The translations under genes were made by a program, and so were the position numbers. The notes beneath the pieces were generated by a model, which saw nothing but the letters and a program-made list of their open reading frames with translations, did no database searches and had not been told where the DNA came from. DNA of 64,000 nucleotides from the IMG/VR virus record IMGVR_UViG_3300044695_005922, positions 41-64,040 of that record. One strand, written 5' to 3'. Positions 8,934-63,851 of the stretch are shown here, in pieces; position 1 is the first letter of the stretch, and the number at the start of each line of letters is the position of its first letter. Origin of the DNA: a virus. Its lineage: Duplodnaviria; Caudoviricetes.

Positions 8934-9304
8934 ACGATGATGAAAATAAAAATCCAAACGCATTAACGTATGGAATCACGCCTAACGCACCAGCAACAAT
9001 TCATCCAGTTGATGTTGATACTTGGAAAGCAGAAGTGTCTCCCACGTTTAAACATTATTTTAAAGAACGGTATGATGTTGTTGTGCAGGATTATGAAAAG
9101 TTGGTACGAGAATATTCTATCAATAAAATGTTGTATGAAAGTTCAATAAGTTTTAAGCCGAATATTGGGGATACTTACTATCTATATAAGAAGCAAAATG
9201 GATCTGCTTTTATATCACTGGTAAATCCTGCTCAAGCGTTCTGGGGTGGATATGTCGGTACTTTTAAATTAAACGCCCAGTATGCATGGGAAGAGGTTTT
9301 ATGA
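8930..9304 (+). CDS. DUF2452-like protein
   Basis: FKPNIGDTYYLY..ISLVNP..GTFKL..W pattern. Confidence 0.6.
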   Translation: MNDDENKNPNALTYGITPNAPATIHPVDVDTWKAEVSPTFKHYFKERYDVVVQDYEKLVREYSINKMLYESSISFKPNIGDTYYLYKKQNGSAFISLVNPAQAFWGGYVGTFKLNAQYAWEEVL

Positions 9305-10155
9305 CGATAGATTATAGTAGGGTTATCCAAGCACAACCCGATGGTTATGATGTAGAGGTGTTTAAACAAATTAAGTTGCAAAAGGGATTTGTTAAAAAAG
9401 AATTTCCATACAAGAAAGTTTCTGGTATGTATGTTCATTCTTTTAATCCATCTACATTACCCACCTCATTTGCCAATAACGATTCTCGCTTAAACACATT
9501 GGCACAAATTGCTCCACGAGCAGTACCTACTATATGGAATACCATAACAAATTTAGTGGATGTATTCACTCCAATCGAACTCGCAGCCGATAGGAACGAA
9601 TTCTCATGCCAGTTGGCGGCAGTTGAATATCCAAATTCTTGGATTGTTATGGCTCCTCTTCCTGGTGATACAGTGGTTACGGTTCGAAATATGTATCACG
9701 AAATGATTCATTGGAAATTTACAGCACTAGGATTTGGAAAGGGATGTACACCAGAAGTATTCGATATGTTACATCACAATAATGAATTTGTCTTAAATCC
9801 AGTTGAAGAACTACATCACTCTATTGTGAATAGTTATGATGACACAGCACAAGCTGCTGTTGGACACAAAGCATCAGGCCGTCCCATTAGTGCGTCACTT
9901 CATGCATATGCCTCATTCTTGGGTGAAGCTGAAGTATCTCTACGTTTCGTACAACACGATTTTAAAGCACATTACCATTGGTTGGGTTACGCGAAGAAGT
10001 GGGGAGATAGATTGAACGAATCCTTGGAGGCTTTGATGTTAAAGGCACATACCACGGAAAAGGGAGCACAATTACTTCTTGGATTGTACCGATGGACTCG
10101 TGATTATCAAGAAGAATATAAAGACACACTTAAAACATTATCTAAATTGATGTAA
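9301..10155 (+). CDS. aKG-HExxH-like putative peptide beta-hydroxylase, copy 1
   Basis: HEMIHWK plus downstream RPISASLHAYASF; paralog of 61598..62437; start 9301 by ATGA overlap and paralog alignment. Confidence 0.6.
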   Translation: MTIDYSRVIQAQPDGYDVEVFKQIKLQKGFVKKEFPYKKVSGMYVHSFNPSTLPTSFANNDSRLNTLAQIAPRAVPTIWNTITNLVDVFTPIELAADRNEFSCQLAAVEYPNSWIVMAPLPGDTVVTVRNMYHEMIHWKFTALGFGKGCTPEVFDMLHHNNEFVLNPVEELHHSIVNSYDDTAQAAVGHKASGRPISASLHAYASFLGEAEVSLRFVQHDFKAHYHWLGYAKKWGDRLNESLEALMLKAHTTEKGAQLLLGLYRWTRDYQEEYKDTLKTLSKLM

Positions 10156-29369: not shown

Positions 29370-29379
29370 ACTATTTATA
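29370..29379 (+). promoter_or_regulatory. ACTATTTATA motif (candidate late promoter)
   Basis: Exact copy about 24 nt before ATG 29403. Confidence 0.55.
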
Positions 29380-29402: not shown

Positions 29403-29567
29403 ATGAGAAAAGATAAATATTCATATACTACCGTGCAAATTACGAAAGAAATAAATCAACACATTCGTGAGTTTTGTAAACTCAACGGGTTTGTTGCAAG
29501 CACCATTACAGAAAAGTTATGGTCTAATTTTATTTCTTCTAGTATGTCCGGTAGTATTACTTTATAA
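29403..29567 (+). CDS. 54-aa ribbon-helix-helix-like protein (not in ORF track)
   Basis: YTTVQITKEINQHIREFCKLNG..TITEKL. Confidence 0.5.
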   Translation: MRKDKYSYTTVQITKEINQHIREFCKLNGFVASTITEKLWSNFISSSMSGSITL

Positions 29568-29576: not shown

Positions 29577-30659
29577 ATGGCTATACCAACAAAACAAGAT
29601 ATATATTTTGCGGCTGGAGCCGGGGATGTAGCCGAATTTAATTCTGGCAAATACAGCCGTATAGTAATTACACCAGAACGTGCAGAGGAAACTCGTAAAT
29701 TAAATAATTTACCAGCCAACGTATTAAGTACCGCCACAACTTCGGGTGGTTGGGTGTTCATTAATCCAGACTATGTTGATGCAGAGGAACTATTCAATGC
29801 ATACAGAAGTGGATTTTTCACTGGTGATTATGATGAAATTGCTCCAGGTGGTGTATACCTACGATTGTTGCCTGACAAGGGTATTGGTGCCAATTTCTAT
29901 CCACCACAATCGTTTACACCTGCACAAGAAATACCACAACCCGTAACGGATAATACTCCGGTAACGGTTACACCACCACAAACACCTACGTTAACACAGG
30001 CAACGAGTCAAGTATTCAGAACGAATAATGAATTGAATGATATGATTGAAACGCATTTAAATGCGAAATTCGTTCCACAAGCACAACGTACCCGTGAAGA
30101 TTCTACGGCAAAAAAAGGTAACAGAATATTTGCAGAAGATGTCGGTACACCAATTTATGAATATCTTGATGGTCCGTATTGGCGTAGAATTGTAGCGTAC
30201 GTAGAATCACAAGTTGCTCCTGTACGTGCATTAGCACAACAAGCCCTTGCAACGGCTCAAGCTGCAGCGGCTTCCGCAGCTGGAGCGGCACAATTAGCAC
30301 AAGCAGCATTGGATAGGGCTATGACCCCAGGTCCACCAGGTCCACCAGGACCTGCCGGTGCAGCAGGGGCGCCTGGTGCTGACGGAGCAGCGGGACATTC
30401 GGATACAGTTGTCATTGAACATGCAGATATCACACACAACGACATAACGCACACAGATACACCACACAACGATACTGTGCATAATGACACATCGGTACAA
30501 CATGCAGATACACCAGTTCACAATGACACATATGTACCGCACTCAGACATTCCGCATTCCGATACGGAAATACTCCCACACACAGATACCTACATACAAC
30601 ACGGAGATAGTGGTGGTGGCGGTGGAGGTGGTGGTGGCAGTGAAATTATAGCATTTTAA
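29577..30659 (+). CDS. Collagen-containing protein with C-terminal His-Xaa-Asp repeats and poly-Gly tail
   Basis: Ala-rich coiled coil, 7 GXY triplets, 12 HxD units, G9 tail. Confidence 0.8.
   Translation: MAIPTKQDIYFAAGAGDVAEFNSGKYSRIVITPERAEETRKLNNLPANVLSTATTSGGWVFINPDYVDAEELFNAYRSGFFTGDYDEIAPGGVYLRLLPDKGIGANFYPPQSFTPAQEIPQPVTDNTPVTVTPPQTPTLTQATSQVFRTNNELNDMIETHLNAKFVPQAQRTREDSTAKKGNRIFAEDVGTPIYEYLDGPYWRRIVAYVESQVAPVRALAQQALATAQAAAASAAGAAQLAQAALDRAMTPGPPGPPGPAGAAGAPGADGAAGHSDTVVIEHADITHNDITHTDTPHNDTVHNDTSVQHADTPVHNDTYVPHSDIPHSDTEILPHTDTYIQHGDSGGGGGGGGGSEIIAF
30396..30608 (+). repeat. 12 His-Xaa-Asp peptide repeats
   Basis: HSD,HAD,HND,HTD,HND,HND,HAD,HND,HSD,HSD,HTD,HGD with 2-5 residue spacers. 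Confidence 0.9.
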
Positions 30660-30683: not shown

Positions 30684-32084
30684 ATGAAACACGGTTATAT
30701 TCCAAAAGAACAACGTAAGAAGATTTTATTCCTCTCAGACGATATGCGAGTAACATCAGGTGTTGGTGTTATGTCTCGTGAAATAATTGAGGGAACTTCG
30801 CATAGATTTAATTGGGTACAGGTAGGTGCAGCGGTTTCTCATCCTGAGGCCGGTAAAATGATTGATATGTCCGACGCAATTAATAATGAAGTCGGATTGA
30901 CTGACGCTAGTGTTAAGATTGTTCCCTACAATGGATACGGTGACAGTAGATTGATTCGTCAGTTAATAGAATTAGAAACGCCAGATGCTATTCTCCATTT
31001 CACAGACCCAAGATATTGGATTTGGTTATATCAGATTGAGCATGAGATTCGTCAAAAGATTCCTATGTTCTTCTACGCTATTTGGGATGACCTTCCGTAT
31101 CCATTCTATAATGAAAATTATTATCGTTCCGATGATTGGATTGGATGTATTAGTAAACAAACCTACAATATCGTAAAGCACGTATCAAGAAAGGAACCAC
31201 GTGCTCCGTGGTCACTATCCTACATTCCACATGGAATTGATACAAAGAAGTTCCATCCACTACCAGAAGATGACAAAGAACTCTTGGAAGTTCGTGAACG
31301 ATTGTTTAACGGTCAAGACGTTAAATATGTAGTGTTCTACAATAGTAGAAATATTCGTAGAAAGATGACATCGGATATTCTGTTGGCATTTAACACGTTT
31401 ATGAAAAAGCTACCAGAAGAAGAACGTTCAAAGTGCCGTCTTGTATTACACACACAACCCGTTGATGAACACGGTACTGACTTACCTGTGGTGATTCGTG
31501 ACGTAATGCCAGAATTAGAAAAGTATGTTATTTTCTCAAACGAACGCATTGAATCGAAGCATATCAACATTCTGTATAACATCGCAGACGTTACCATTAA
31601 TATGTCTAGTAATGAAGGTTTTGGTTTGGGTACGTGTGAAAGTCTAGTTGCTGGTACACCAATCATTGTTAATGTCACGGGTGGATTGCAAGACCAGTGT
31701 GGATTCACAAATGATGAAGGTGAATACCTTGACCCTGAACGTGATTTCAATTATGATTGGGGTAGTAATCACGATGGACGTTTCAAGAATCACGGTGAAT
31801 GGGCATTCCCATTATTTCCAGTAAGTCGTTCTTTACAAGGTTCTCCGTTGACCCCGTACATTTTTGATGACCGTTGTTCGTGGGAAGAAGCAGCGGAGAA
31901 GATAATGGAAGTGTATAAGATGTCGCGTGAGGAACGTAAACGCCGTGGTGAGTTGGGTCGTCAATACGCACTTGGAGCTGGACAATTTACGGCAGAACGT
32001 ATGTGTGAATTATTTATCGAACATATGGAAAATGCGTGGGATAATTGGACCCCACGGGAACGTTTTACTTTGGTGAAGGCATAA
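30684..32084 (+). CDS. GT-B (GT4-like) glycosyltransferase
   Basis: YIPHGID, NSRNIRRK, LYNIADV..SSNEGFGL..ESL..GTPII. Confidence 0.88.
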   Translation: MKHGYIPKEQRKKILFLSDDMRVTSGVGVMSREIIEGTSHRFNWVQVGAAVSHPEAGKMIDMSDAINNEVGLTDASVKIVPYNGYGDSRLIRQLIELETPDAILHFTDPRYWIWLYQIEHEIRQKIPMFFYAIWDDLPYPFYNENYYRSDDWIGCISKQTYNIVKHVSRKEPRAPWSLSYIPHGIDTKKFHPLPEDDKELLEVRERLFNGQDVKYVVFYNSRNIRRKMTSDILLAFNTFMKKLPEEERSKCRLVLHTQPVDEHGTDLPVVIRDVMPELEKYVIFSNERIESKHINILYNIADVTINMSSNEGFGLGTCESLVAGTPIIVNVTGGLQDQCGFTNDEGEYLDPERDFNYDWGSNHDGRFKNHGEWAFPLFPVSRSLQGSPLTPYIFDDRCSWEEAAEKIMEVYKMSREERKRRGELGRQYALGAGQFTAERMCELFIEHMENAWDNWTPRERFTLVKA

Positions 32085-32085
32085 T

Positions 32086-33393
32086 ATGACAGGCAAACCG
32101 TTATGTATAGTTAGAGCACCATGCCAGACTCGTTCTGGTTATGGTGATATGAGTAGAGACATTATCCGTCACATCATTGAATGGGATAAGTTTGATGTGA
32201 AGGTGCATAGTGTACCGTGGGGTGATACTCCTATGAATGCACTGGATGAAACTAATCCAAAGGACAAAATGATTTTGGATAGAATCATTCGTGGTGGACA
32301 ATTACCACAACCGTCATTGTATGTTACCATTACGATTCCAACAGAATTTGAACCGTTAGGAAAGTACAATATCGGTATAACCGCCGGCATTGAAACCACC
32401 GTGGCTTCTGCTGAATGGATACAAGCATGTAATAAAATGGATTTAGTACTAACTATTTCCGAACACTCAAAGAATGTTTTTCATTTCTCAAAGTACTCAC
32501 AGCAAGATCAACAAGGTAATATCATTGGTGAACTAGCAGTCACCAAACCAATTGAAGTATTACACAATTGTATTGATAATAACATATTTAAGAAAATTGA
32601 ATATGATTTTAATTTAGAGCCAAAAATACGAGAAACATTGGATAGCATTCCAGAGAAATTCTGTTATCTTTTCGTTGGTCACTGGCTCCGTGGTGAATTT
32701 GGAGAGGACCGTAAGAATGTTGCACTGTTGGTGAAAATATTCCTTGAAACATTCCGACAAGTTCCAGAAAAAGAAAAGCCTGCGCTTATTTTAAAAACTA
32801 GTAGTGCTGGATTTTCTATCTTGGACAGAGAAGATATATTAAAGAAAATCGAACAAATCAAGAAATCTGTTACTTTGAACGCTGGACAGAGCATGCCGAA
32901 TATTTATTTATTGCATGGTGAGTTAACAGACAAAGAAATGAATTCGTTATATAACCACTCAAAGGTAAAAGCACACGTAAGCTTAACCAAGGGTGAAGGA
33001 TTTGGTAGACCATTACTCGAAGCATCAATTAGTGGTAAACCCGTAATCGCATCTGGATGGAGTGGTCAACTTGATTTCTTGGATAAAGACAATTCATTAC
33101 TAATTGGTGGTGAACTCAAACCTATCCACGAAAGTTCTGTGTGGGACGGTGTATTGATTCGGGAGTCTACGTGGTTCGCTCCTGATATGAACCAGTCAGC
33201 AAACGCAATGTACGCCGTATTTAAGAATTACAGTAATTTTAAAAAGAAGGCACAGTTGTTAGCAAAACAAAATGTTAAGAAGTTCTCGTATCAAACTATT
33301 TTTAACAGAACAGTTGAGTTGTTAGACAAATATGTTCCACAATTTTCCGTTGAAACTAAATTGGTTCTTCCAACATTAAAGAAAATTAACTAA
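32086..33393 (+). CDS. GT-B (GT4-like) glycosyltransferase
   Basis: SGYG, RKNV, TKGEGFGRPLLEA..GKPVIASGWSG. Confidence 0.88.
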   Translation: MTGKPLCIVRAPCQTRSGYGDMSRDIIRHIIEWDKFDVKVHSVPWGDTPMNALDETNPKDKMILDRIIRGGQLPQPSLYVTITIPTEFEPLGKYNIGITAGIETTVASAEWIQACNKMDLVLTISEHSKNVFHFSKYSQQDQQGNIIGELAVTKPIEVLHNCIDNNIFKKIEYDFNLEPKIRETLDSIPEKFCYLFVGHWLRGEFGEDRKNVALLVKIFLETFRQVPEKEKPALILKTSSAGFSILDREDILKKIEQIKKSVTLNAGQSMPNIYLLHGELTDKEMNSLYNHSKVKAHVSLTKGEGFGRPLLEASISGKPVIASGWSGQLDFLDKDNSLLIGGELKPIHESSVWDGVLIRESTWFAPDMNQSANAMYAVFKNYSNFKKKAQLLAKQNVKKFSYQTIFNRTVELLDKYVPQFSVETKLVLPTLKKIN

Positions 33394-53371: not shown

Positions 53372-53389
53372 ATTTTAAAATTTTATTTT

Positions 53390-53399
53390 ACTATTTATA
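53390..53399 (+). promoter_or_regulatory. ACTATTTATA motif
   Basis: Exact copy before GGAG and ATG 53433. Confidence 0.55.
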
Positions 53400-53432
53400 A
53401 TACCCTTTCACAATTACACTTGGAGAAACACG

Positions 53433-53603
53433 ATGTCCGAAAACGAAATGTTACGGGAATTCGTGCAAGAATCAACTCCTCGTCAAGTTTCTCATCGGGA
53501 CTCTACACGGCATGACCTCCGTGAATGGAATGTCCAGATGTATTATGAGGCGATGGGAATGGATTTCGGGCACGACGACGACTATGTAGAAGAAAAACAA
53601 TAA
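53433..53603 (+). CDS. 56-aa peptide (not in ORF track)
   Basis: GGAG RBS; MSENEMLREF...SHRDSTRHD...GHDDDYVEEKQ. Confidence 0.55.
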   Translation: MSENEMLREFVQESTPRQVSHRDSTRHDLREWNVQMYYEAMGMDFGHDDDYVEEKQ

Positions 53604-53611: not shown

Positions 53612-54631
53612 ATGGCAAGTTACACAATATATCATCCCGCACATAAAGGACATACTCCAAATCCAGTTGACATTAACACATATGTCACTGAACTTCTGGC
53701 GTATGAATTAAAAACTGTACTGTTTGATATGGGACATCAAGCAAACATTACCTATATTAATTTGTGTGCAGATAATAGGGTGTTATATATTCCAGAAGTG
53801 GATATTAATGTAAGCTCAGATGGACCGTATATACCTGACTCCCTATGGTTTATAATAGTTAACGACGAAACAAAAAATTTTGTTGTTGTAGATTTACAAG
53901 ACGCTCCATCTGTAACGCGGTATCTACAAACACTTCCAGGTTATGTCATGTCGTTACTTGGCCAGTATTCACTGGAACGGTATCATCACGAGAATCCGTG
54001 GTTAGATTTTACGAAATTACTACCATTTGTTTATTTCCCATATTATCCAAATGTTGTTGAATCTATGATTGAAGAAATTCAAGATATTAGAAATTCATCT
54101 CATCTGGATGATAGAGTATTTTTCTTTGGAAATAATCGTGACGATTATTTACACGATGGAGTTAAAATTAGAGAAGTAATATCCGCACTAGAATACAAAT
54201 ATCCCGATGAGGTTTGTGTTGGTAGTACGGAGAAAAAACTTCCAATGCAAGACTTTTTTAGAAAAGCAGCGACGCATACAATTAATCTAGGATTACCAGG
54301 ACACCAATGGTGTTCCCGTGAACATGAATTGTGGACATTGGGACTTCCCGTTATGTTATACGAACACACACATCATCTGGCTGTTGACTTAATACCCAAC
54401 TATCATTATATTGCCGTACCTGTTGGTCCGCGGTTGTCTATTGGCATGGCCACCAATCCAACGAAAGCCGCCGACCAGATAATTAAAGCACACAGAGAAT
54501 GGATTAAACCTAGTAATAAATGGCGACTAAATAATATTGCTTATAATGGACAACGTAGAATATTAGAACAAGCATCGCCAAAGACAGTTATTCCGAAATT
54601 AATAGACCTTATACAGTTGGGTAATTGGTAA
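53612..54631 (+). CDS. Putative GT-B glycosyltransferase
   Basis: VFFFGN..R, LGLPG..CSRE.E..LGLPV, LIPNYHYI, IAYNG. Confidence 0.55.
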   Translation: MASYTIYHPAHKGHTPNPVDINTYVTELLAYELKTVLFDMGHQANITYINLCADNRVLYIPEVDINVSSDGPYIPDSLWFIIVNDETKNFVVVDLQDAPSVTRYLQTLPGYVMSLLGQYSLERYHHENPWLDFTKLLPFVYFPYYPNVVESMIEEIQDIRNSSHLDDRVFFFGNNRDDYLHDGVKIREVISALEYKYPDEVCVGSTEKKLPMQDFFRKAATHTINLGLPGHQWCSREHELWTLGLPVMLYEHTHHLAVDLIPNYHYIAVPVGPRLSIGMATNPTKAADQIIKAHREWIKPSNKWRLNNIAYNGQRRILEQASPKTVIPKLIDLIQLGNW

Positions 54632-54633
54632 TT

Positions 54634-55539
54634 ATGCAGATTATAAAAACAAACATTGAACGTCCAAACTTTACTAATATTTCTTTTAAACAAGAATATG
54701 AAAAAGACGCGGATAAATACAGAAAATTAATGTCTAATATCGTTGAGGTATTCAATCGTATTGAATATCTTTCGGTAATTGAAGGAACTCGTGACGCACA
54801 TTTATTATTTATTCGACCCGCCGATGTTGAACACAAACGTGCAGAATTTCGTAAATATGGATTGGAGATTGTTTTACTAAACAAAGAAGCAGATAATATG
54901 AGTGGTAACTACGGTAATCACTCACTTCCGTGGGATGGACAGGCACAATTTGTATGGCGTTCTATTGTAACCAAACCAGAATTAGTTTCCAAGTGGAATG
55001 ACATCTGGAAAACTCGTGAACGTGATGTATTTATGGGAGAATATCTCATTGGTCGTGGATTGGGATATCCACATTGTTGTTCAGAGCATTTTACGGAAGT
55101 ATGGATGCGGCGAGGTGGTATTGATACAACGTGGCAACAAGCAGCCTGTACAATTACCAATACATCTGATTATGTTGAAGCAGAAAACATTCTTGGTGAA
55201 TATAATGCTATCGAATTACCTGAAACAACACCAATCTGGGCTAGTAATCTTCTTCGATGGGCTGGGTTAAAGTTAGTTACACATTTACCGTGTTCATTTA
55301 ATTGTACCGAATCTAAACGAATTGCATTAGAAAATCTTGGTATTGCAACGAAATATGGATATGGATACGAATATAATATGTTATGTAAGATGTTGGATTG
55401 GGAAATAACGTGGACCGCGGAATATGGTGTAGCCACAATTGATACACCAGTATTTACCATACATACGTTAACTGATGTAACGGCAACACCTTACAAGGTA
55501 ATTAAAAAAGGTAATAAACAATGTATATTTGTTAAATAG
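54634..55539 (+). CDS. DUF483-like Cys-rich protein
   Basis: IGRGLGYPHCC..F, DTTWQQA, NLLRWAG..HLPCSFNC. Confidence 0.55.
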   Translation: MQIIKTNIERPNFTNISFKQEYEKDADKYRKLMSNIVEVFNRIEYLSVIEGTRDAHLLFIRPADVEHKRAEFRKYGLEIVLLNKEADNMSGNYGNHSLPWDGQAQFVWRSIVTKPELVSKWNDIWKTRERDVFMGEYLIGRGLGYPHCCSEHFTEVWMRRGGIDTTWQQAACTITNTSDYVEAENILGEYNAIELPETTPIWASNLLRWAGLKLVTHLPCSFNCTESKRIALENLGIATKYGYGYEYNMLCKMLDWEITWTAEYGVATIDTPVFTIHTLTDVTATPYKVIKKGNKQCIFVK

Positions 55540-55608: not shown

Positions 55609-55636
55609 TATAGTATACCCTAAACGAAAGGTGATT

Positions 55637-57889
55637 ATGTCAAGATACTACGACACATATGAACAAGAAACTCTGTGGACACTTAACACGCGGACAGGTG
55701 TTAAGAAGAAGCAGGCTACTAATTACAGTTCGTATTGGATGGATTTTGATGATGATGAGTACACCACATCTACAATCAAAGATGACTCTGTAAATCCAGA
55801 GCGTATTGTCAAGCTTGCCTCTGTTCGTCGAGCTATTGCTAATTTTGTTCGTATTCTCACCAACGATGAAACGATTGAAGTGGCTTTTTCTTCCGGCAAG
55901 GATTCGTATACCGATGGTAAGCGTGTTGTAATTGCTGCTGAAGATGATTCGAAACATTTCGATTCTATGGTGGGTCTTGCACTACACGAGGGATCACATT
56001 GTCTCCTTTCGGATTTCAATATGTTGGAGCATTTGATTACTGAGAAGAATTGGGAGCAGTGCTACATTGCGTTGAGTACTGAACTCCGTGGTCTGCTTCA
56101 TCCCGATTATCAGATTGATTATAATCGTAACGATATCGGCCTCAACAAAATTCGTTCGCAGGTGCTGGCGATGCAGAAGATGTTGGGTATTATTATGAAT
56201 GTAATCGAAGATCGTCGTATTGATTCGTATGTGTATAAGAACGCATCGGGGTATCGTCCTTATTACGATGCGATGTATACCAAGTATTTCTTTAATACCG
56301 AAGTTACCAAAAACTTGAAGCACAACCCAGCGTGGCGTACTCCTACGTTTCAGAATTACACGAACTGGTTGATTAATATTTTTCATCCGAACTTTGACCG
56401 CAATGCACTGCCTGGGCTGTCTAAGATGGTCGGTATGATTGATTTGAAGAATGTCCGCCGATTTGATATTACTAAGCGGATGCCAGAACGTTTTGCTGAG
56501 TGGAGTTTTTCGTTCACCAATTCTCCTTGGCAAAACTGGTATATCAATGTTGGTAGTAAATCATATTCGGGCGGCCCTTCGTATGTTACGTTGTTGGATT
56601 ACGAAACCCTCCCACCGTTGTGGACTGTTGCCAATGATGTGCTGTATGAAATTATGAAGCATATTGGCGATTATGAACAGCAGATGCAAAAGGCTAACTC
56701 GGATACATCCACACAAACTGTACAGATTCAGATGGATGGTGTGCAGTTTGATATGAATTTGGATGGTTTGGAAAATCTTGATATTGGCAACACGCAGTCA
56801 TCGGTTGTTCCTGGTAAGTTCAATGAGAAGAAGGCGTTAGATGCGATGAAGAAGATGGAGCAGGTAATGCGTGGTCAGAATCGTCGTAAGAAGTTGAAGG
56901 CGAAGGAACGGGCTGACATCCAGCATCTCGAATCCGCAGATGCGAAGATTGTTGAGGCTGGTGATAAGATTGTCGGCATGTTCCCGTGTCTTGTTACACG
57001 TAAAATTAATAAACAAATTATGTTGTCGGAGTTCTTCCCATTTTCGCATGTTACGCATCATAAGGGTGAGAGGGTTCTGTACTCTACTGAACGTAACAAG
57101 AATGCAGTGGTATCTGGTGTTCGTATGGGTCAGATTCTTGTGCATAGGTTGCAGGTTCGCAACGATCCTGTTGTAACGACATTTACCCGTCAGGATCACG
57201 GTCGTATTGACCGCCGTATCCTCGCTCAGCTGGGTATGGATATTGAGAGTGTGTTCAAGCGAACCACGGTTGAAAACTTTAAGCCTGCGATGCTCCATCT
57301 GTCTCTGGACGCGTCTGGTTCTATGAGTGGTAGGAAGTGGGAACAGTGTATTACCGTGGCTACTGCATTGTCCTATGTCGCTAGTAAAATTCGTAATATT
57401 GAAGTTGTTGTTACGATTCGTGGTGATAGTGAAATTCCTATGGTCGCTGTGGTGCATGACAGTCGAGTTGATAATTTCCAAAAAGTTCGTAACCTCTTTC
57501 CTTCCCTGTGTCCGACAGGTTCTACTCCTGAGGGATTGTGCTTCAACGCAACGCTAGACCTTATCACGGAATGCTCTGGTGAATACGATACGTACTTCAT
57601 TAACTTTTCGGATGGTGAACCTGGTACATCTGTTCGTCGTGGTGGTGAATATCGTAATTATGGTGGTGAGGAAGCATTCAATCATACACGGCGACAGGTA
57701 CAAGCGATGCGTGATGCTGGTGTCAAGGTTATGTCGTATTTCATTTCTGAGTACACAACGATTAAACCCCACAGCTATTCGCATACCGCTTTCAAAAAGA
57801 TGTACGGTGAAAGCGCTGTGTTTGTGAATGTGCAGAATGTAACTGAGGTACTTCGTACTATGAATAACCTTCTACTCAAAAAGTCCTAA
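55637..57889 (+). CDS. CobT-like zincin plus VWA domain protein
   Basis: SYTDG, LALHEGSH, NVIEDRRID; MIDAS LDASGSM, TPEG, NFSDGEP. Confidence 0.85.
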   Translation: MSRYYDTYEQETLWTLNTRTGVKKKQATNYSSYWMDFDDDEYTTSTIKDDSVNPERIVKLASVRRAIANFVRILTNDETIEVAFSSGKDSYTDGKRVVIAAEDDSKHFDSMVGLALHEGSHCLLSDFNMLEHLITEKNWEQCYIALSTELRGLLHPDYQIDYNRNDIGLNKIRSQVLAMQKMLGIIMNVIEDRRIDSYVYKNASGYRPYYDAMYTKYFFNTEVTKNLKHNPAWRTPTFQNYTNWLINIFHPNFDRNALPGLSKMVGMIDLKNVRRFDITKRMPERFAEWSFSFTNSPWQNWYINVGSKSYSGGPSYVTLLDYETLPPLWTVANDVLYEIMKHIGDYEQQMQKANSDTSTQTVQIQMDGVQFDMNLDGLENLDIGNTQSSVVPGKFNEKKALDAMKKMEQVMRGQNRRKKLKAKERADIQHLESADAKIVEAGDKIVGMFPCLVTRKINKQIMLSEFFPFSHVTHHKGERVLYSTERNKNAVVSGVRMGQILVHRLQVRNDPVVTTFTRQDHGRIDRRILAQLGMDIESVFKRTTVENFKPAMLHLSLDASGSMSGRKWEQCITVATALSYVASKIRNIEVVVTIRGDSEIPMVAVVHDSRVDNFQKVRNLFPSLCPTGSTPEGLCFNATLDLITECSGEYDTYFINFSDGEPGTSVRRGGEYRNYGGEEAFNHTRRQVQAMRDAGVKVMSYFISEYTTIKPHSYSHTAFKKMYGESAVFVNVQNVTEVLRTMNNLLLKKS

Positions 57890-58182
57890 TGACATATATC
57901 AATTGGCCACACGGTAATGAGACATTAGCGGAGCACCTAAATCGTTTCTCGAAATATTTGTATCGAAAACGGAAACACGATTCAGGGAATTTGGGTGCAA
58001 TGATGTATGGGTTGTATTTACATTACAACACACAAACTGGTGAAGTCAGTGAGTTATATGCTGATTTGAATAAACCGTGGAAAGTTCGAAAGAATAATTA
58101 CTGTATTGGTGAACTGGAACAACTCGCCAAAGGATTGATTGACAGAGTACAAAATAGTTTAAATATAACGGCAGAAAAATAA
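57889..58182 (+). CDS. Hypothetical protein
   Basis: TAATG overlap. Confidence 0.55.
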   Translation: MTYINWPHGNETLAEHLNRFSKYLYRKRKHDSGNLGAMMYGLYLHYNTQTGEVSELYADLNKPWKVRKNNYCIGELEQLAKGLIDRVQNSLNITAEK

Positions 58183-58218
58183 AAAATCCCCCGTCAGAGT
58201 TGGCGGGGGATTTTCTTT
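58183..58218 (+). terminator. Intrinsic terminator (possibly bidirectional)
   Basis: AAAATCCCCCGTCA-GAGT-TGGCGGGGGATTTT. Confidence 0.85.
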
Positions 58219-58226
58219 ACATTTGT

Positions 58227-58236
58227 ACTATTTATC
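58227..58236 (+). promoter_or_regulatory. ACTATTTAT motif
   Basis: About 26 nt before ATG 58262. Confidence 0.5.
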
Positions 58237-58261
58237 TATTGGACTCTTTTCAGGAACCATT

Positions 58262-59629
58262 ATGACAATACAGTACAAAATAGACCAAATGCCATCATTA
58301 CTACCAGATGCATTGAATAATATGAATGAGCATGGTAGAGGTGGGTGGGAATTAATACACTTATACAATAATTTGGGTGTATTCAAATCTGGATTGGGAG
58401 GAACTATCACCAGTGGTTCGACTAATGTATCCGTGGATGCATTCGGGCGTCAACGAGTGGCAGACACATTCACTCTTGGTGATTACAAACATTTATATTC
58501 AATTGATTATAATTTCCTAAATTATTTTGTTAGTGGTGGTAGTTTAACCCACAACGCCAACCAAGCACTCGTTGTATTACAAACTAGCGCAAGTGCTGCA
58601 AGTAGGACAATTCATCAAACGAAAATGTATCACAATTACATGCCTGGCAAAAGTCAATTGGTGTTGTCTAGTTTTAATTTTAAAGCAGCACAACCTGGTG
58701 TTATCAAACGTACTGGATACTTTGATGATTATAATGGTATCTTTTTTGAACAAGATGCCACGGGAAGTTTAAATTGGGTAATTCGTTCTGCAACCAACGG
58801 CACGGGTTCTATTCAAGAAAATAGAATTCGTCAAGAAAATTGGAATGTTAATACGGCAAATGCTCCTGAGTTTACCTTGGATATAACCAAAACACAATTA
58901 ATATGGATTGATTTCCAATGGTTGGCGGTTGGTCGTGTTCGTGTAGGATTTGTTCACCAAGGGTCATTCGTTTTATGTCATATGTTTGACCACAGTAATT
59001 ATACAGACAAACCATATATGTCCAACCCAAACCTCCCAGTTCGTTGTGAAATACGTAACACCACAACCGCAACAGGAAGTTTTGACCAGATTTGTTCTAG
59101 TGTGATGAGTGAAGGTGGATTCGTAGAATCGGGGACAACCTGGGGAATCACAAGCCCAAACTTACGAACTATCACCAGTGCATCATCTGTACCAATAATA
59201 TCCATCAGATTAAAGAATAGTTATAACAATCTCCAAAATCGTGCATTCGTTCGTATTGATAATATGAGTGTATTCACCAAAGATCAAACAGTGAAATATA
59301 GAATGGTCAAACTACCAAGCTCTGCATCACTCACTGGTGGTAGTTGGGTATCGGTGAATGCTGACTCAACCGTGGAATACAACGCAACCGCAACCGCAAT
59401 CTCTGGTAGTGGACAAGAACTTCTTAATGGATTCGTGTTCGCCGGCGGCATTGGTGTTGGTAATGCAATCGCTGGTCAAGGGCAAGTCACTGGTGTTGCT
59501 ACAAAAAATAATTATATCGCACAAAATTACGATAGTAACGATAGTGAAATTTACTCATTGGTGGTTACCAATATGACTGCAACCTCAACTGATGTAGGTG
59601 GGGCTACAACTTGGAGAGAGGTAACATAA
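58262..59629 (+). CDS. Putative virion structural protein, beta-rich, DUF4177-like N-terminus
   Basis: QYK..LNN..GRGGWELI; DAFGRQRV; YMPGKS; DFQWLAVGRVRVGF; C-terminal WREV. Confidence 0.6.
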   Translation: MTIQYKIDQMPSLLPDALNNMNEHGRGGWELIHLYNNLGVFKSGLGGTITSGSTNVSVDAFGRQRVADTFTLGDYKHLYSIDYNFLNYFVSGGSLTHNANQALVVLQTSASAASRTIHQTKMYHNYMPGKSQLVLSSFNFKAAQPGVIKRTGYFDDYNGIFFEQDATGSLNWVIRSATNGTGSIQENRIRQENWNVNTANAPEFTLDITKTQLIWIDFQWLAVGRVRVGFVHQGSFVLCHMFDHSNYTDKPYMSNPNLPVRCEIRNTTTATGSFDQICSSVMSEGGFVESGTTWGITSPNLRTITSASSVPIISIRLKNSYNNLQNRAFVRIDNMSVFTKDQTVKYRMVKLPSSASLTGGSWVSVNADSTVEYNATATAISGSGQELLNGFVFAGGIGVGNAIAGQGQVTGVATKNNYIAQNYDSNDSEIYSLVVTNMTATSTDVGGATTWREVT

Positions 59630-59687
59630 TATATTTATTTTAATAAATACTATTTAATACAATTGTAACATTAATGGAATCCTAATG

Positions 59688-59726
59688 TACGGGGACTTGT
59701 CTTATGATGAGTCCCCGTATTATATT
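59688..59726 (+). promoter_or_regulatory. Hairpin overlapping a sigma70-like promoter
   Basis: TACGGGGACT/AGTCCCCGTA 10-bp stem; TTGTCT N18 TATATT. Confidence 0.6.
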
Positions 59727-59769
59727 ACAGAGTATGAAGTTCACGACCAACTACACTCTCTGAGGAATT

Positions 59770-60918
59770 ATGACCACTCTTGTAAAGGTTCTGGATAATC
59801 TGACGGCGGTTGACCAGCATGGTAATGACATGACTGTTGATATTCCGCTCCACGCCCGAAAGCGAGCCAACGCAAACGGTACTGCACTCCGTATGTTGAA
59901 CACCAAGACTGGTCGTACGCAGTGGCGTGATACTGATATGGCAGACTACGATGCTCTCCGCAAGACTGCGGTTCCCTCCAAGAAGGTAGAGAATGTGAAA
60001 AATGAACTGGAAAGTGATGTGGTAGAGTTTTTGAAGAACTGTGAAACTCTCAAGCCCTCGCATCTGATTATGGATTCGTTGAAGTGGCGATATTTGATGC
60101 GTTCGGTACTTCGTGGTAAGAACATTATGATGACTGGTCCTTCTGGTTGTGGTAAGACCCTCGCCGCACAGACTATCGCAAACGTGCTGGATGGCCGGCG
60201 GTTCTATTACTTCAATCTCGGTGCTACACAGGATCCCCGTTCCACGCTTATCGGTAATACCCATTTCAGCAAGGACAAGGGTACGTTCGTGGCTGAGGCT
60301 CTGTTCGTCAAGGCAATTCAGGATGACAACGCCATCATTCTTCTTGACGAGTTGACGCGTGGACACGCTGACGCCTGGAACATTCTGATGACGGTTCTTG
60401 ATGAGAACCAGCGTTACCTTCGCATTGATGAGATGCCAGACACACCGACGATTAAGGTGGCGAGGGGTGTAACGTTTATCGCTACGGCAAACATCGGTAG
60501 TGAGTACACCGCAACTCGTGTCCTTGACCGAGCGATGATGGACCGATTTGCTTCGGTGGTCGAGATGGAACCGCTTAACAGGGAAGATGAGCTTTCTCTT
60601 CTCACGATGACGTATCCAGAGGTTAATCCCGCTGCACTTCGTGCAATCGCAGAGATTGCAGACCACACTCGTACGCAGGTTCGTAGCGAAGATCCAAAGG
60701 TTACTACTTCTATCTCGTCCCGTATGACGGTTGAGATGGCTGGTCTGTTGAATGATGGGTTCACTCTCGCAGAGGCTGCTGAGGCGTGTGTCTATCCCTT
60801 CTTCTCTCCCGCTGGTGGTAATGATTCGGAACGCACGTACATGCGGCAGGTGGTGCAGAAGTACTTTGTGGACCCCACCATTACCGCTAACGTACCGTGG
60901 GAGCAAGCTCCCTTCTAA
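59770..60918 (+). CDS. MoxR-type AAA+ ATPase (CobS/CbbQ/NorQ-like)
   Basis: GPSGCGKT, LLDELTR, FIATANIG.EY..LDRAMMDRF, ISSR. Confidence 0.9.
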   Translation: MTTLVKVLDNLTAVDQHGNDMTVDIPLHARKRANANGTALRMLNTKTGRTQWRDTDMADYDALRKTAVPSKKVENVKNELESDVVEFLKNCETLKPSHLIMDSLKWRYLMRSVLRGKNIMMTGPSGCGKTLAAQTIANVLDGRRFYYFNLGATQDPRSTLIGNTHFSKDKGTFVAEALFVKAIQDDNAIILLDELTRGHADAWNILMTVLDENQRYLRIDEMPDTPTIKVARGVTFIATANIGSEYTATRVLDRAMMDRFASVVEMEPLNREDELSLLTMTYPEVNPAALRAIAEIADHTRTQVRSEDPKVTTSISSRMTVEMAGLLNDGFTLAEAAEACVYPFFSPAGGNDSERTYMRQVVQKYFVDPTITANVPWEQAPF

Positions 60919-61597: not shown

Positions 61598-62437
61598 ATG
61601 TTATTTCACGATATTGATTACAGTCGTATCTTACAACCACAAGAAGATGGTTACGACATAGATGTATTCACGAAGATTAAAAAGAACAATGGATATGTTC
61701 CTGTTGAGTATCCGTCGTCTATGACAAAGTTTCATGGAAAGGTTGCAATCGTTCCTCGTTCTGAACAAGATTATCGGACGATTAAAACCTTAGACTTTGA
61801 ATCGTTCGCTAACATTTATCAGCAAGTGTGGCCGTTGGGATATAATAATGTCCGTGGATTGGTAGATGTAATGGTTCCTAATCTTGAAGTAGGTCAGAAT
61901 TATAGTGGTCAACACGATGGTAATGAATTTGGTCATCCTGGGGCATGGGCAATTATGACTTCAATTGACCAGTACAATCCCGTTGCTGCGTTAGCTAATC
62001 TTGTGCACGAACTGATGCACTGGAAGTTGGTTGCGTTGGGATTTGGTACAGGAGCAAACACATTCTTTCCCACCACAGAAGAGTTTATTCTTAATCACGA
62101 AAGTGAATTGTGTTGGTCTATTGTAAACAGTTACGCCAACACGGCACAACCTGCGGTGGGTAACAAACCTACCAATCGTCCTGTGTCTGCCTCACTACAC
62201 GCCTACTTGTCATTTCTCGGGGTGGCACATACACATATTCATAATCTAAAATATGAACCAGACAACGGTGAGTCACGATACAAGGCTCAACTATGGGGGT
62301 CACGATTCGATAAGTGTCTTGATGAATTGTGGAAGGTGGGTAAGTTTACCCCGCAGGGTCAACGATTAATGTTGGGTGTGAGTAAGTGGACTGCTGATTT
62401 CTTTTATGATGCAAAACAAATAAAGCATTTATTCTGA
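61598..62437 (+). CDS. aKG-HExxH-like putative peptide beta-hydroxylase, copy 2
   Basis: NLVHELMHWKL, RPVSASLHAYLSF. Confidence 0.62.
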   Translation: MLFHDIDYSRILQPQEDGYDIDVFTKIKKNNGYVPVEYPSSMTKFHGKVAIVPRSEQDYRTIKTLDFESFANIYQQVWPLGYNNVRGLVDVMVPNLEVGQNYSGQHDGNEFGHPGAWAIMTSIDQYNPVAALANLVHELMHWKLVALGFGTGANTFFPTTEEFILNHESELCWSIVNSYANTAQPAVGNKPTNRPVSASLHAYLSFLGVAHTHIHNLKYEPDNGESRYKAQLWGSRFDKCLDELWKVGKFTPQGQRLMLGVSKWTADFFYDAKQIKHLF

Positions 62438-63374: not shown

Positions 63375-63851
63375 ATGGACAAACAATATCGTGAAATGAT
63401 TAATACCCGACGATTGTATAAGTTCGAGGGTGAGTTCTTTTACCAACCGCAATATAAACCATTTACTAAACAATTACCTATTAGTACATTACGTACCTTG
63501 GGTCAAACTATCTGGGATAATGAGTCAAATGGAAAGTATTTAATTCCTGAAATACGATTTGGTAAAGGCATATATCATACACAAGCACGTGGGAAAAACT
63601 TTTATTATTCCTGGTGTGATCGGCAAACCATAGAGCTCGCGCCTACCCAACGAGATATGATAACCCTTATACATGAAATGGTCCACGCATTAGGATATGA
63701 TTATCATGATAGTAGATTCGTGGGGAAGTACATCTATCTCTTAAAGAAATATGCAGGCATATCTAAAAAAGAACTTATATTAGGTATGAAAGAATATAGT
63801 GTGGCATTACCCGTAAAGTATAGGAAGAGCTATCGGTCACACCAACAATAA
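63375..63851 (+). CDS. SprT-like zinc metalloprotein
   Basis: TLIHEMVHALG..H...F. Confidence 0.65.
   Translation: MDKQYREMINTRRLYKFEGEFFYQPQYKPFTKQLPISTLRTLGQTIWDNESNGKYLIPEIRFGKGIYHTQARGKNFYYSWCDRQTIELAPTQRDMITLIHEMVHALGYDYHDSRFVGKYIYLLKKYAGISKKELILGMKEYSVALPVKYRKSYRSHQQ

What the first reader, a model, noticed from the sequence alone, without database searches (positions are those of the whole stretch)
29577..30659. Collagen protein with a 12x His-Xaa-Asp tail: candidate substrate of a phage RiPP-like modification system
Seen: an Ala-rich coiled coil, 7 Gly-X-Y triplets, then 12 strict HxD units with variable spacers and a poly-Gly end. The DNA repeats are degenerate, so selection acts on the HxD motif. 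The gene follows the candidate late motif and heads the glycan island. Established: aromatic-X-X triads, including His-led ones, are substrates of radical SAM cyclophane synthases and partner aKG-HExxH hydroxylases. The window also has two HExxH-like enzymes, a DUF483-like protein and three 2OG oxygenases. Inference: the phage applies RiPP chemistry (cross-linking, beta-hydroxylation, perhaps then glycosylation) to a trimeric virion fibre. A metal-binding His/Asp tail is the alternative. No radical SAM gene is in this window.
Basis: partly seen in the sequence, partly recalled or inferred. Interest (0 to 1): 0.88.

Follow-up and report, generated by a model that had tools for sequence, protein, structure and literature searches.

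The report
Collagen-stalked phage fibre with His-x-Asp array
A large phage encodes a three-stranded, collagen-like fibre protein ending in twelve His-x-Asp units, a repeat that in other phages almost always sits beside peptide-crosslinking enzymes, so this virus probably modifies the fibre chemically, although its key enzyme is not on the piece of genome we hold.

Summary
It has an N-domain, a conserved module, an Ala-rich coil, 7 GXY triplets, 12 HxD units holding all 12 His and 12 Asp of the tail, Gly9 and a short hydrophobic end. A small metagenomic family keeps the HxD columns.

HxD arrays are widespread in viral contigs. In 23 of 29 array-bearing records a radical SAM/SPASM gene is present, usually directly downstream, against 1 of 33 control records. 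A DUF483-like partner follows it, and sometimes an aKG-HExxH hydroxylase.

The window holds a true orthologue of that partner (54625-55539) and two HExxH paralogues, but no radical SAM gene. In 79 of 80 other partner loci the radical SAM gene lies within 8 kb. Here a glycosyltransferase-like gene occupies that place.

The partners closest to the window's serve collagen-plus-array proteins.

Verdict: observation confirmed, interpretation partly supported. This is a dispersed variant, without a visible radical SAM gene, of a phage HxD-maturation system. This scan has already found that system on other DNA. No chemistry has been shown.

The parts
29370..29379 (+). Promoter-like motif ACTATTTATA ahead of the small ORF and the HxD gene
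   Evidence: 4 exact copies on the + strand against 0.23 expected; 0 of 100 shuffles reach 4. Another copy heads the partner unit at 53390.
29403..29567 (+). 54-aa ORF between the motif and the HxD gene; function unknown
   Evidence: ORF list. A similar stretch ends the 247-aa ORF that precedes the HxD gene in L003, seen by eye.
29577..30659 (+). HxD fibre gene (P0001, 360 aa plus stop)
   Evidence: Five homologues at E 3e-226 to 3e-37. Conserved synteny in L001-L003.
29577..30011 (+). N-terminal domain and Pro/Thr-rich linker (residues 1-145); absent from the shorter homologues P0004-P0006
   Evidence: Alignment A1. No Pfam family. No usable Atlas hit. AF2 monomer pLDDT too low to use.
30024..30221 (+). 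Conserved module (residues 150-215, with KKGN, VG.PI..YLD and YW.RIV); also heads fibre-like proteins that have no HxD array
   Evidence: Invariant columns in A1. Profile hits P0009, P0015 and P0016 carry the module, then a coil or Ser/Thr-rich linker and other C-terminal parts.
30222..30326 (+). Ala-rich segment predicted as a three-chain coiled coil (residues 216-250)
   Evidence: Trimer prediction: ipSAE 0.72 against best control 0.00; confident contacts at residues 193-280.
30330..30395 (+). Collagen-like stretch: 7 GXY triplets plus a closing Gly (residues 252-273)
   Evidence: Read. Invariant G/P columns. 9-nt period at 30327-30349. Weak PHROG tail-fibre match on residues 230-275.
30396..30608 (+). 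Array of 12 HxD(T/I/S) units (residues 274-344)
   Evidence: HxD columns invariant in six homologues. Profile matches to HxD arrays of long phage proteins.
30612..30656 (+). Gly9 run and C-terminal SEIIAF (residues 346-360)
   Evidence: Poly-Gly and an aromatic or aliphatic end are kept in the homologues.
30684..33393 (+). Two GT4-type glycosyltransferase genes directly downstream; the order is conserved in relatives
   Evidence: PF00534 at 36.7 and 30.9 bits. Same order in L001 and L003.
53390..53399 (+). Second copy of ACTATTTATA, ahead of the glycosyltransferase-like/partner unit
53612..54631 (+). Glycosyltransferase-like gene (P0108) overlapping the partner's start by 7 nt, in the place where other phages have the radical SAM gene
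   Evidence: No Pfam hit. Atlas neighbours include a Glyco_trans_1_2 cluster at score 0.96. No CX3CX2C motif, and no match to the cassette radical SAM HMM. Found in 1 of 29 array records, its own relative only, and in 0 of 80 partner loci.
54625..55539 (+). DUF483-like partner (P0107), orthologue of the partner in phage HxD/radical SAM cassettes; short form without a methyltransferase domain
   Evidence: PF04467 at 19.4 bits. Homologues in 22 of 29 array records, next to the radical SAM gene, best at 36% identity and E 7e-42. All invariant residues kept. AF2 pLDDT 90.2.
9286..10155 (+). aKG-HExxH-like paralogue 1
   Evidence: TIGR04267 at 23.1 bits, cut-off 40. 37% identical to paralogue 2.
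61598..62437 (+). aKG-HExxH-like paralogue 2
   Evidence: TIGR04267 at 34.8 bits, cut-off 40. Full-length BLASTP match, E 1e-12, to the above-cut-off HExxH gene that lies between the array and radical SAM genes in L155.

Best explanation
P0001 is a modular, trimeric fibre-type protein of a large phage (about 210 kb; the record is rated 30% complete).

Build. A conserved N-proximal module and an Ala-rich coiled coil bring three chains together. Seven collagen triplets continue the stalk. The stalk presents three parallel arrays of 12 HxD(T/I) units, capped by poly-Gly and a short hydrophobic end.

Proposed function. The HxD array belongs to the class of phage His-x-Asp/Asn arrays that are substrates of a dedicated maturation system. 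That system is a radical SAM/SPASM enzyme of the peptide-crosslinking kind, a DUF483-like partner and, in some phages, an aKG-HExxH beta-hydroxylase.

In this phage the partner (54625-55539) and two HExxH paralogues are present but scattered. The partner unit and the fibre gene share a promoter-like motif.

Most likely the array is recognised by the partner and modified after translation. By analogy with triceptide synthases, each His would be joined through C2 to the beta-carbon of the Asp two residues on. The HExxH enzymes would then hydroxylate Asp or His.

Shown here: the sequence features, the family, the co-occurrence statistics and the orthology of the partner.

Inferred: that the protein is in the virion, that it is modified at all, which chemistry is used, and that a radical SAM enzyme exists in the unseen 70% of the genome.
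For: 1. The array is real and under selection.

2. Trimer prediction for residues 150-360: ipSAE 0.72 against best control 0.00. The runs agree in at least 44% of contacts and partner pLDDT is at least 53. The mark was reached by 20 of 30 solved homo-pairs and 1 of 23 single chains. Coiled coils and collagen may pass by likeness to solved structures.

3. A profile of the family finds 99 representatives at E<=1e-3. Of the 97 new ones, 72 carry at least 6 HxD and 40 carry at least 20.

4. Radical SAM is present in 23 of 29 array-bearing viral records (22 over cut-off) against 1 of 33 control records from the same scan.

5. The gap between the array ORF and the radical SAM gene is within about 50 nt in 20 of the 23.

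6. These radical SAM proteins best match anaerobic sulfatase maturase, DynA and the cyclophane-forming AmcB, YhhB and GrrM/OscB families.

7. Homologues of the window's P0107 lie in 22 of 29 array records, beside the radical SAM gene. P0107 keeps all 11 invariant columns of the family.

8. Of the 80 partner loci kept from IMG/VR, 79 hold the radical SAM gene and 73 hold an array.

9. Collagen-plus-array proteins occur in 10 of those 80 loci. All ten are among the 14 loci whose partners are most like P0107. A quick tree puts P0107 beside that clade.

10. An above-cut-off aKG-HExxH gene sits between the array and radical SAM genes in L155 and aligns full-length with the window's paralogue. TIGR04267 is over cut-off in 0 of 33 control records.

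11. P0001 is the only HxD-array ORF in the window.

12. ACTATTTATA precedes both the fibre unit and the partner unit.

13. Literature, read as passages. Triceptide synthases join His-C2 to the beta-carbon of residue 3 on HAA, HNR and HTK motifs (PMC11499958). An aKG-HExxH enzyme hydroxylates Asp and His after cyclophane formation, and other HExxH enzymes act without it (PMC12636437).
Against: 1. No radical SAM gene lies in the window by Pfam or by a cassette-specific HMM with filters off. None was found in the records holding the relatives L036/L001 (78 kb), L002 (36 kb) and L003 (30 kb).

2. The window is the only case I saw of a partner with no radical SAM gene nearby. The one other locus without it, L225, is a 4.2-kb contig that starts inside the partner.

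3. The array gene is 24 kb from the partner and is followed by glycosyltransferases, not by a radical SAM gene.

4. P0107 sits on a very long branch, 2.53 against a median of 0.61. Its placement has SH-aLRT 84 only, in an unfinished quick tree. It may have changed function or be decaying.

5. Both HExxH paralogues score below the family cut-off.

6. The HxD part was not placed with confidence in the trimer model; confident contacts stop near residue 280. The monomer model is unusable, pLDDT 41.8.

7. The match between the window's array and other arrays is a repeat and composition match, so it does not prove common descent.

8. The two co-occurrence sets overlap and contain near-duplicate phages, so the counts overstate the number of independent cases.

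9. No modification of any HxD array has been shown by experiment in anything I read.
Confidence: 0.5

Rival explanations
1. The HxD tail is an unmodified metal-binding needle. In the trimer, His and Asp at positions i and i+2 point to the axis. Three His plus three Asp then coordinate one metal ion per unit, as the HxH motifs of T4 gp37 coordinate iron. The partner and HExxH genes would serve other targets or be relics.
For: - A trimeric context is predicted.
- Every His and Asp of the tail sits in the i/i+2 register.
- HxH motifs in trimeric phage fibres bind iron octahedrally (passages of PMC11705849).
- Proteins with the same conserved module (P0018, P0035) carry HxH triplets, and P0018 also has HxD units.
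- No radical SAM gene is in view.
Against: - Elsewhere HxD arrays come with a radical SAM enzyme and a partner far more often than chance. This phage keeps the partner with all its invariant residues, and P0001 is the only array in the window.
- P0001 has no HxH.
- No solved structure with an HxD ladder was found by sequence.
- Metal binding and enzymatic modification do not exclude each other.
Confidence: 0.22
2. This is a variant of the system that works without a radical SAM enzyme. The DUF483-like partner here works with the overlapping glycosyltransferase-like P0108, the HExxH paralogues and perhaps the neighbouring GT4 enzymes. The array is then hydroxylated and/or glycosylated, for example on the Thr after HxD or on a new beta-hydroxyl, instead of being cross-linked.
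For: - P0108 overlaps the partner's start by 7 nt, in the slot that the radical SAM gene fills in most of the 79 other loci that hold one.
- P0108 is glycosyltransferase-like by its Atlas neighbours and is specific to this lineage: 1 of 29 and 0 of 80.
- The fibre gene is followed by two GT4 genes in all relatives.
- Thr follows 8 of the 12 HxD units.
- Stand-alone HExxH enzymes hydroxylate peptides without a cyclophane (PMC12636437).
- The long branch of P0107 fits a change of job.
Against: - P0108 has no Pfam match, and the Atlas gives only leads.
- No case of a partner acting without a radical SAM enzyme is known.
- 70% of the genome is unseen, so a radical SAM gene may simply lie elsewhere.
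- T/I/V/S after HxD is also common in arrays of radical SAM cassettes.
Confidence: 0.15
3. The array is a flexible or low-complexity spacer of a fibre or decoration protein with no special chemistry. The partner and HExxH genes are remnants of a broken cassette.
For: - The components are dispersed, no radical SAM gene is in view, and P0107 has a long branch.
- Structure predictions have low confidence over the tail.
Against: - The HxD columns are invariant across homologues of 48-94% identity while the spacers and the DNA vary.
- P0107 and both HExxH genes are intact ORFs with their conserved residues. P0107 folds with pLDDT 90.2.
Confidence: 0.08

Closest known systems
Phage 'rSAM module' (radical SAM + DUF483 protein + a protein of unknown function) of Thermus phages Cumys and phiMa (Kolesnik et al., Viruses 2024, PMC11437467; passages read)
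   Same: The radical SAM/DUF483 pairing I found beside HxD arrays in viral contigs is the same. The window's P0107 belongs to the DUF483-like partner family.
   Different: In the passages I read, the paper does not mention HxD repeats and proposes DNA modification. The window has the partner but no radical SAM gene in view, and the array gene is 24 kb away. I did not test Cumys or phiMa sequences. The paper's figures and supplements were not visible to me.
Triceptide (three-residue cyclophane) RiPPs acting on His motifs: HaaB (HAA), YhhB (HNR), HtkB (HTK) (PMC11499958; passages read)
   Same: An aromatic-X-X triad led by His. The phage cassette radical SAM enzymes have cyclophane-forming YhhB, AmcB and GrrM/OscB among their best NCBIfam matches.
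   Different: All those matches lie far below the equivalog cut-offs: 50-100 bits against 300-450. The substrate here is a 360-aa trimeric protein with 12 units, not a leader-core peptide. Asp at position 3 was not among the motifs I read about. No such enzyme is in the window.
ChlBH-type radical SAM-fused aKG-HExxH beta-hydroxylase, and stand-alone HExxH enzymes PflC, PosC and BpmH (as described in PMC12636437; passages read)
   Same: HExxH enzymes that hydroxylate Asp and His of modified peptides. One phage cassette has an above-cut-off HExxH gene between the array and radical SAM genes. The window has two paralogues of that type.
   Different: The window's paralogues score below the family cut-off, are not fused to or next to a radical SAM gene, and lie 20 and 31 kb from the array gene.
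HXS antiphage system: HxsA with five His-Xaa-Ser repeats matured by the radical SAM enzymes HxsB/HxsC (PMC13128918; abstract only)
   Same: A whole protein with His-Xaa-Yaa repeats that is matured by radical SAM enzymes.
   Different: It is a bacterial defence effector in the periplasm with HxS rather than HxD, two radical SAM enzymes and HxsD. The HxsB model matches the phage enzymes only weakly: 42 and 30 bits against a cut-off of 370.
HxH iron-binding needle of T4 gp37 and other phage fibres (as described in PMC11705849; passages read)
   Same: A trimeric phage fibre with metal-ligand residues at i and i+2, repeated along the axis.
   Different: HxD rather than HxH; P0001 has no HxH. The units are much more densely packed. 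There is a link to maturation enzymes that HxH fibres are not known to have (this last point is recalled, not tested).
Collagen-like phage and prophage fibre proteins (recalled, no call)
   Same: GXY triplets after a trimerising coiled coil. Weak PHROG tail-fibre match over residues 230-275.
   Different: Only 7 triplets, and no Pfam Collagen match at E<=1. The distal part is an HxD array, not a globular receptor-binding domain.

Membership tests
Phage HxD-array maturation system (array + radical SAM/SPASM + DUF483-like partner) | A dense array of His-x-Asp/Asn units in a protein | tested here: met
   12 HxD in 71 residues; 0 of 100,000 shuffles reach 12.
Phage HxD-array maturation system (array + radical SAM/SPASM + DUF483-like partner) | A radical SAM/SPASM gene next to the array or partner gene | tested here: not met
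   No PF04055 match in the 64,040-base record. No match to a cassette-specific HMM with filters off. The record is rated 30% complete, so absence from the phage is not shown.
Phage HxD-array maturation system (array + radical SAM/SPASM + DUF483-like partner) | A DUF483-like partner with the conserved GYPxCC and HLPCSFxC motifs | tested here: met
   P0107 keeps all invariant columns of 20 aligned partners. Best match 36% identity, E 7e-42. It lies 24 kb from the array gene.
Phage HxD-array maturation system (array + radical SAM/SPASM + DUF483-like partner) | The array gene lies directly upstream of the enzyme genes (one cassette) | tested here: not met
   The downstream genes are GT4 glycosyltransferases. 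The gene upstream of the partner is the glycosyltransferase-like P0108.
Triceptide RiPPs (three-residue cyclophanes) | An aromatic-X-X motif in the substrate | tested here: met
   12 His-X-Asp triads. His-led motifs are accepted by known synthases (PMC11499958).
Triceptide RiPPs (three-residue cyclophanes) | A cognate three-residue cyclophane-forming radical SAM/SPASM enzyme | tested here: not met
   None in the window. Cassette enzymes of other phages only resemble these families, far below cut-off.
Triceptide RiPPs (three-residue cyclophanes) | A ring-to-beta-carbon cross-link (-2 Da per motif) | not testable with these tools
   Needs mass spectrometry or NMR.
aKG-HExxH peptide beta-hydroxylase (TIGR04267) system | An enzyme that reaches the family's curated score | tested here: not met
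   34.8 and 23.1 bits against a cut-off of 40. There is, however, a full-length match at E 1e-12 to a cassette HExxH that scores 70.5 bits.
aKG-HExxH peptide beta-hydroxylase (TIGR04267) system | Beta-hydroxylated Asp or His in the substrate (+16 Da) | not testable with these tools
   Needs mass spectrometry.
Collagen-like trimeric fibre | An uninterrupted run of GXY triplets | tested here: met
   7 triplets at residues 252-272. The Pfam Collagen model gives no hit at E<=1, as can happen with so short a run.
Collagen-like trimeric fibre | Assembly as a homotrimer | tested here: inconclusive
   Prediction only: ipSAE 0.72 against control 0.00, pLDDT about 54, contacts at residues 193-280. It may pass by likeness to solved coiled coils and collagens.
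HxH iron-binding fibre needle (T4 gp37 type) | HxH motifs | tested here: not met
   0 HxH in P0001.
HXS system (HxsA-D) | His-Xaa-Ser repeats with HxsB/HxsC | tested here: not met
   The units are HxD. There is no radical SAM gene in the window.

The most novel reading that the evidence does not exclude
This phage lineage has rewired the HxD-array maturation system. The radical SAM enzyme has been replaced by a glycosyltransferase-like enzyme that is translationally coupled to the DUF483-like partner. The collagen-stalked HxD(T) array would then be beta-hydroxylated by the two HExxH paralogues and glycosylated with products of the adjacent 18-kb glycan island. The result would be a glyco-modified, RiPP-like tip on a virion fibre.
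Probability: 0.12. Interest if true: 0.88.

Novelty: new variant of a known kind. Interest (0 to 1): 0.7.

Why it matters
Enzymatic chemistry of the RiPP type is known from small peptides and, recently, from one bacterial defence effector (HxsA). My five literature searches found no paper that describes it on a virus structural protein.

HxD arrays with their radical SAM/partner genes are common in viral contigs: at least 113 partner loci in IMG/VR. A modified fibre tip would therefore bear on host recognition, particle stability and metal binding in many phages.

This window adds three things.
- The array can be mounted on a short collagen/coiled-coil trimer. That gives a small, 360-aa, easily expressed test substrate.
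- The system can be dispersed over a large genome rather than packed in one cassette.
- The partner here is coupled to a glycosyltransferase-like gene instead of a radical SAM gene. This lets one ask what the partner does on its own.

The same system was found by this scan on other DNA before, so the class is not new to the scan. The arrangement in this window is.

Tried and rejected
Searches that found nothing:
- tblastn of P0001, the HExxH paralogue, P0011 and P0019 against 50,697 deposited phage genomes: no match. No cultured relative could be named.
- Sequence search of the PDB with P0001 and P0019: only linker-type Gly-Ser matches, or none.
- Scan of genome contigs with A1: 36 pattern stretches, none a relative.
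- Scan of metagenome contigs: 4 loci, all 93-96% identical relatives.
- Walking beyond the window with P0107 and the HExxH paralogue found only the 78-kb relative. That record ends about 110 nt beyond the window's end.

Structure work:
- The AF2 monomer of P0001 has pLDDT 41.8, so it was not used for a fold search.
- The AF2 model of the partner P0107 is good (pLDDT 90.2), but Foldseek against the PDB gave no hit at E<=0.001.
- VIA-align wide gave at best Z 6.4 (rmsd 3.5, 104 residues aligned) to 2guk, a protein of unknown function. The cysteine methyltransferase NleE scored Z 3.9. No function can be drawn from these.
- The Atlas gave no usable hit for residues 1-145.

Ideas rejected:
- That P0108 is a degenerate radical SAM enzyme: no CX3CX2C motif and score -3.5 on the cassette HMM.
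- That the extra 247-aa ORF before the HxD gene in L003 corresponds to the window's N-domain: no significant match.

The trimer prediction left the HxD part unplaced. This says nothing for or against its structure.

Rows dropped or not independent:
- From the 32 loci with an array-like ORF I dropped five by eye. L026, L082 and L090 have frames that do not look like arrays. L037 is a simple HHSDW repeat. L117 carries the same protein as L036.
- I added L002 and L003, which are relatives of the window.
- G001/G005 and G006/G017 carry identical cassette ORFs, so they are not independent.
- For the control I sent 50 of the 69 non-array loci; 17 were not held, so 33 were searched.
- The 80 partner loci include near-duplicates and overlap the first set.
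- The tree is the quick one. The careful search did not finish, and I did not rerun it.

Supplements of the papers were closed. The supplement and Figure 3B of PMC11437467 may show the third gene of the rSAM module, which I could not check.
Full report
**Observation.** The ORF at 29577-30659 on the + strand is open and encodes 360 residues. Reading the translation with the positions gives this build:
- An N-terminal domain and Pro/Thr-rich linker, residues 1-145.
- A conserved module, about 150-215.
- An Ala-rich stretch, about 216-250.
- Seven GXY triplets, 252-272, with a closing Gly.
- Twelve HxD units between 274 and 344.
- One Ser, nine Gly and the end SEIIAF.

All 12 His and all 12 Asp of the 71-residue tail sit in HxD. 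None of 100,000 shuffles of the tail reaches 12 units; the largest was 8. The spacing is 5 to 8 residues. Thr follows 8 units, Ile 3 and Ser 1.

The DNA is not a clean repeat. Tandem Repeats Finder reports only a 15-nt period with 2.9 copies at 68% matches inside the array.

**The family.**
- The word-indexed protein search found five homologues at E 3e-226 to 3e-37, all metagenomic.
- They differ in the N-terminal part: three lack residues 1-145. All keep the module, the collagen stretch, 12-14 HxD units, a Gly-rich stretch (9-11 Gly in four of them, broken up in P0006) and an aromatic or aliphatic end.
- The HxD columns are invariant while the spacers vary.
- Pfam gives nothing. PHROGs gives a weak tail-fibre match over residues 230-275 only.
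- The module alone also heads other small fibre-like proteins that continue with coiled coils or Ser/Thr-rich linkers and other C-terminal parts. It looks like an exchangeable base for fibres.
- A three-copy prediction of residues 150-360 scored ipSAE 0.72 against 0.00 for the best of three controls. The runs agree in at least 44% of contacts and pLDDT is at least 53. In the tool's calibration the mark was reached by 20 of 30 solved homo-pairs and 1 of 23 single chains.
- The confident contacts run from 193 to about 280, that is the coil and the collagen. The HxD part was not placed. Such a pass may come from likeness to solved coiled coils and collagens.

**Where the window comes from.** The record is an IMG/VR virus contig of 64,040 bases, rated 30% complete. 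All large ORFs lie on one strand. One virion protein gene (58223-59629) has relatives at 36-46% identity in cyanomyoviruses.

Three viral contigs carry the gene in the same order: metallophosphoesterase, HxD gene, two GT4 glycosyltransferases, a 127-aa ORF, an epimerase and a GT11.

**HxD arrays elsewhere.**
- A profile of the family, run against 1.84 billion representatives, gave 99 hits at E<=1e-3. Of the 97 new ones, 72 have at least 6 HxD and 40 have at least 20, in proteins of up to 1,256 residues. Pfam finds at most a Laminin_G_3 domain in them.
Of those loci, 32 hold an ORF of at least 150 aa with at least 8 HxD, mostly at the C-terminal end of long proteins.

**The link to enzymes.** I searched the whole records of 27 of these loci, plus two relatives of the window, for Radical_SAM. 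The dropped rows are listed under Tried and rejected.
- 23 of 29 records have a match, 22 over the cut-off.
- Three of the six without a match are the window's own lineage.
- In the control, 1 of 33 records from the same scan without a real array has one.
- The radical SAM ORF is 386-474 aa with CX3CX2C near its start. It begins within about 50 nt of the end of the array ORF in 20 of the 23 records.
- Its best NCBIfam matches are anaerobic sulfatase maturase, DynA and the cyclophane-forming AmcB, YhhB and GrrM/OscB families, all far below their cut-offs. It is therefore a separate branch of the peptide-modifying radical SAM/SPASM enzymes.
- An aKG-HExxH hydroxylase is over the cut-off in 2 of the 29 records and in 0 of 33 controls. 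In L155 it lies between the array gene and the radical SAM gene.

**What the window holds of this system.**
They lie beside the radical SAM gene, and the best is 36% identical at E 7e-42.
- In an alignment of 20 partners, P0107 keeps every invariant residue.
- The HExxH paralogue at 61598-62437 aligns over its full length with the cassette HExxH of L155 (E 1e-12). It is 37% identical to the paralogue at 9286-10155. Both score below the TIGR04267 cut-off: 34.8 and 23.1 bits against 40.
- P0001 is the only HxD array in any frame of the window.
- The 10-nt motif ACTATTTATA occurs four times on the + strand against 0.23 expected. Two of the copies precede the fibre unit and the partner unit.

**What the window lacks.**
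- There is no radical SAM gene by Pfam or by an HMM built from 22 cassette enzymes with all filters off.
- Seen from the partner's side this is exceptional. A scan of IMG/VR with the partner alignment gave 113 relatives, of which the best 80 were kept.
- Of those 80 loci, 79 hold the radical SAM gene, 73 hold an array ORF, 8 hold an HExxH gene and none holds a relative of P0108. The single exception is a 4.2-kb contig that begins inside the partner.
- In the window, the gene that overlaps the partner's start by 7 nt is P0108. It has no Cys motif, no Pfam match and glycosyltransferase-like neighbours in the Atlas.
- The window and its 78-kb relative both end about 1.6 kb after the second HExxH gene, so the sequence beyond is unknown.

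**Tie between the window's architecture and the cassettes.** Ten of the 80 partner loci encode proteins that combine at least five GXY triplets with an array. All ten are among the 14 loci whose partners are most like P0107, at 29-33% identity. One example, P0109, has a long collagen run followed by H-x-D/N-I/T units, and it sits upstream of further array proteins, the radical SAM gene and the partner.

A quick tree puts P0107 next to this clade. The support is only SH-aLRT 84 and P0107 has a very long branch, 2.53 against a median of 0.61.

**Mechanism.** I think the most likely reading is that P0001 is a trimeric fibre whose array is a substrate of this maturation system.

From the literature passages I read:
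- Triceptide synthases join His-C2 to the beta-carbon of the third residue on HAA, HNR and HTK (PMC11499958).
- An aKG-HExxH enzyme hydroxylates Asp and His after cyclophane formation, and other HExxH enzymes act alone (PMC12636437).

By analogy each HxD would become a small ring, later hydroxylated. This is inference. No experiment on any HxD array appears in what I read, and in this phage the ring-forming enzyme is not in view.

The rivals are:
- An unmodified metal ladder like the HxH needle of T4 gp37 (PMC11705849).
- A rewired variant without a radical SAM enzyme that hydroxylates and glycosylates.
- A mere spacer.

**What is known.**
- Kolesnik et al. described a 'rSAM module' of radical SAM, DUF483 and an unknown protein in Thermus phages, and proposed DNA modification (PMC11437467).
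- The HXS defence system matures a protein with HxS repeats by radical SAM enzymes (PMC13128918, abstract only).
- Five full-text searches found no paper that links HxD arrays of phage proteins to radical SAM enzymes. The library lacks most subscription journals.
- This scan has noted the array/radical SAM/DUF483 trio on other DNA: 23 notes in at least 17 genomes. I reached the same result independently, before reading those notes.

**Verdict.** The window is a new variant: collagen-stalked, dispersed, and with a glycosyltransferase-like gene where the radical SAM gene normally sits.

Noticed in passing
L124, L125, L128-L142, L144, L146 (radical SAM ORFs next to arrays): The cassette radical SAM enzymes themselves end in a short HxD tail, often of the PHGD...HGDHTD type. 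19 of 22 full-length ORFs have at least 3 HxD in their last 60 residues. What the tails do is unknown.
   Followed up: partly
window 29403-29567; L003:9110-9853: A 54-aa ORF lies between the promoter-like motif and the fibre gene. In L003 a similar stretch forms the end of a 247-aa ORF whose middle holds repeated Lys/His-rich short motifs, reminiscent of homing-endonuclease DNA-binding repeats (recalled). That ORF sits directly before the HxD gene.
   Followed up: no
window 20187, 29370, 49587, 53390: ACTATTTATA occurs four times, all on the + strand and all before ORFs, against 0.23 expected. It is a candidate phage promoter.
   Followed up: partly
window end (64000) and the 78-kb relative (L193): The window's record and the independent 78-kb contig end within about 110 nt of each other, roughly 1.6 kb after the second HExxH gene. 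This may be a genome end or a shared assembly break.
   Followed up: no
P0018, P0035 (profile hits): Proteins with the same conserved module carry three HxH triplets (PNPH-x-H type) before the module. P0018 also has HxD units after it. HxH and HxD units thus occur in one protein.
   Followed up: no
L052, L057, L075, L079, L109, L119, L155:370-1227: A recurrent family of small array proteins, 230-400 aa. It has an N-terminal twofold repeat of the type GS-x-W-V-E...L-H-Y-I-D, then an HxD array, and ends in QP-x-Y-V-G. It always lies directly before the radical SAM gene.
   Followed up: no
window 55631-60918: A CobT/vWA-like 752-aa gene and a MoxR/CbbQ-type AAA gene flank a virion structural protein gene (phrog_1645, E 1e-95). 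They lie between the partner and the second HExxH gene.
   Followed up: no
window 63375-63851: A 158-aa ORF with an HEMVH zincin-type motif, unrelated to the two aKG-HExxH-like paralogues by eye.
   Followed up: no
window 53379-53600: The short ORF before P0108 has two HxD triplets only. I saw no sign that it is an array substrate.
   Followed up: partly
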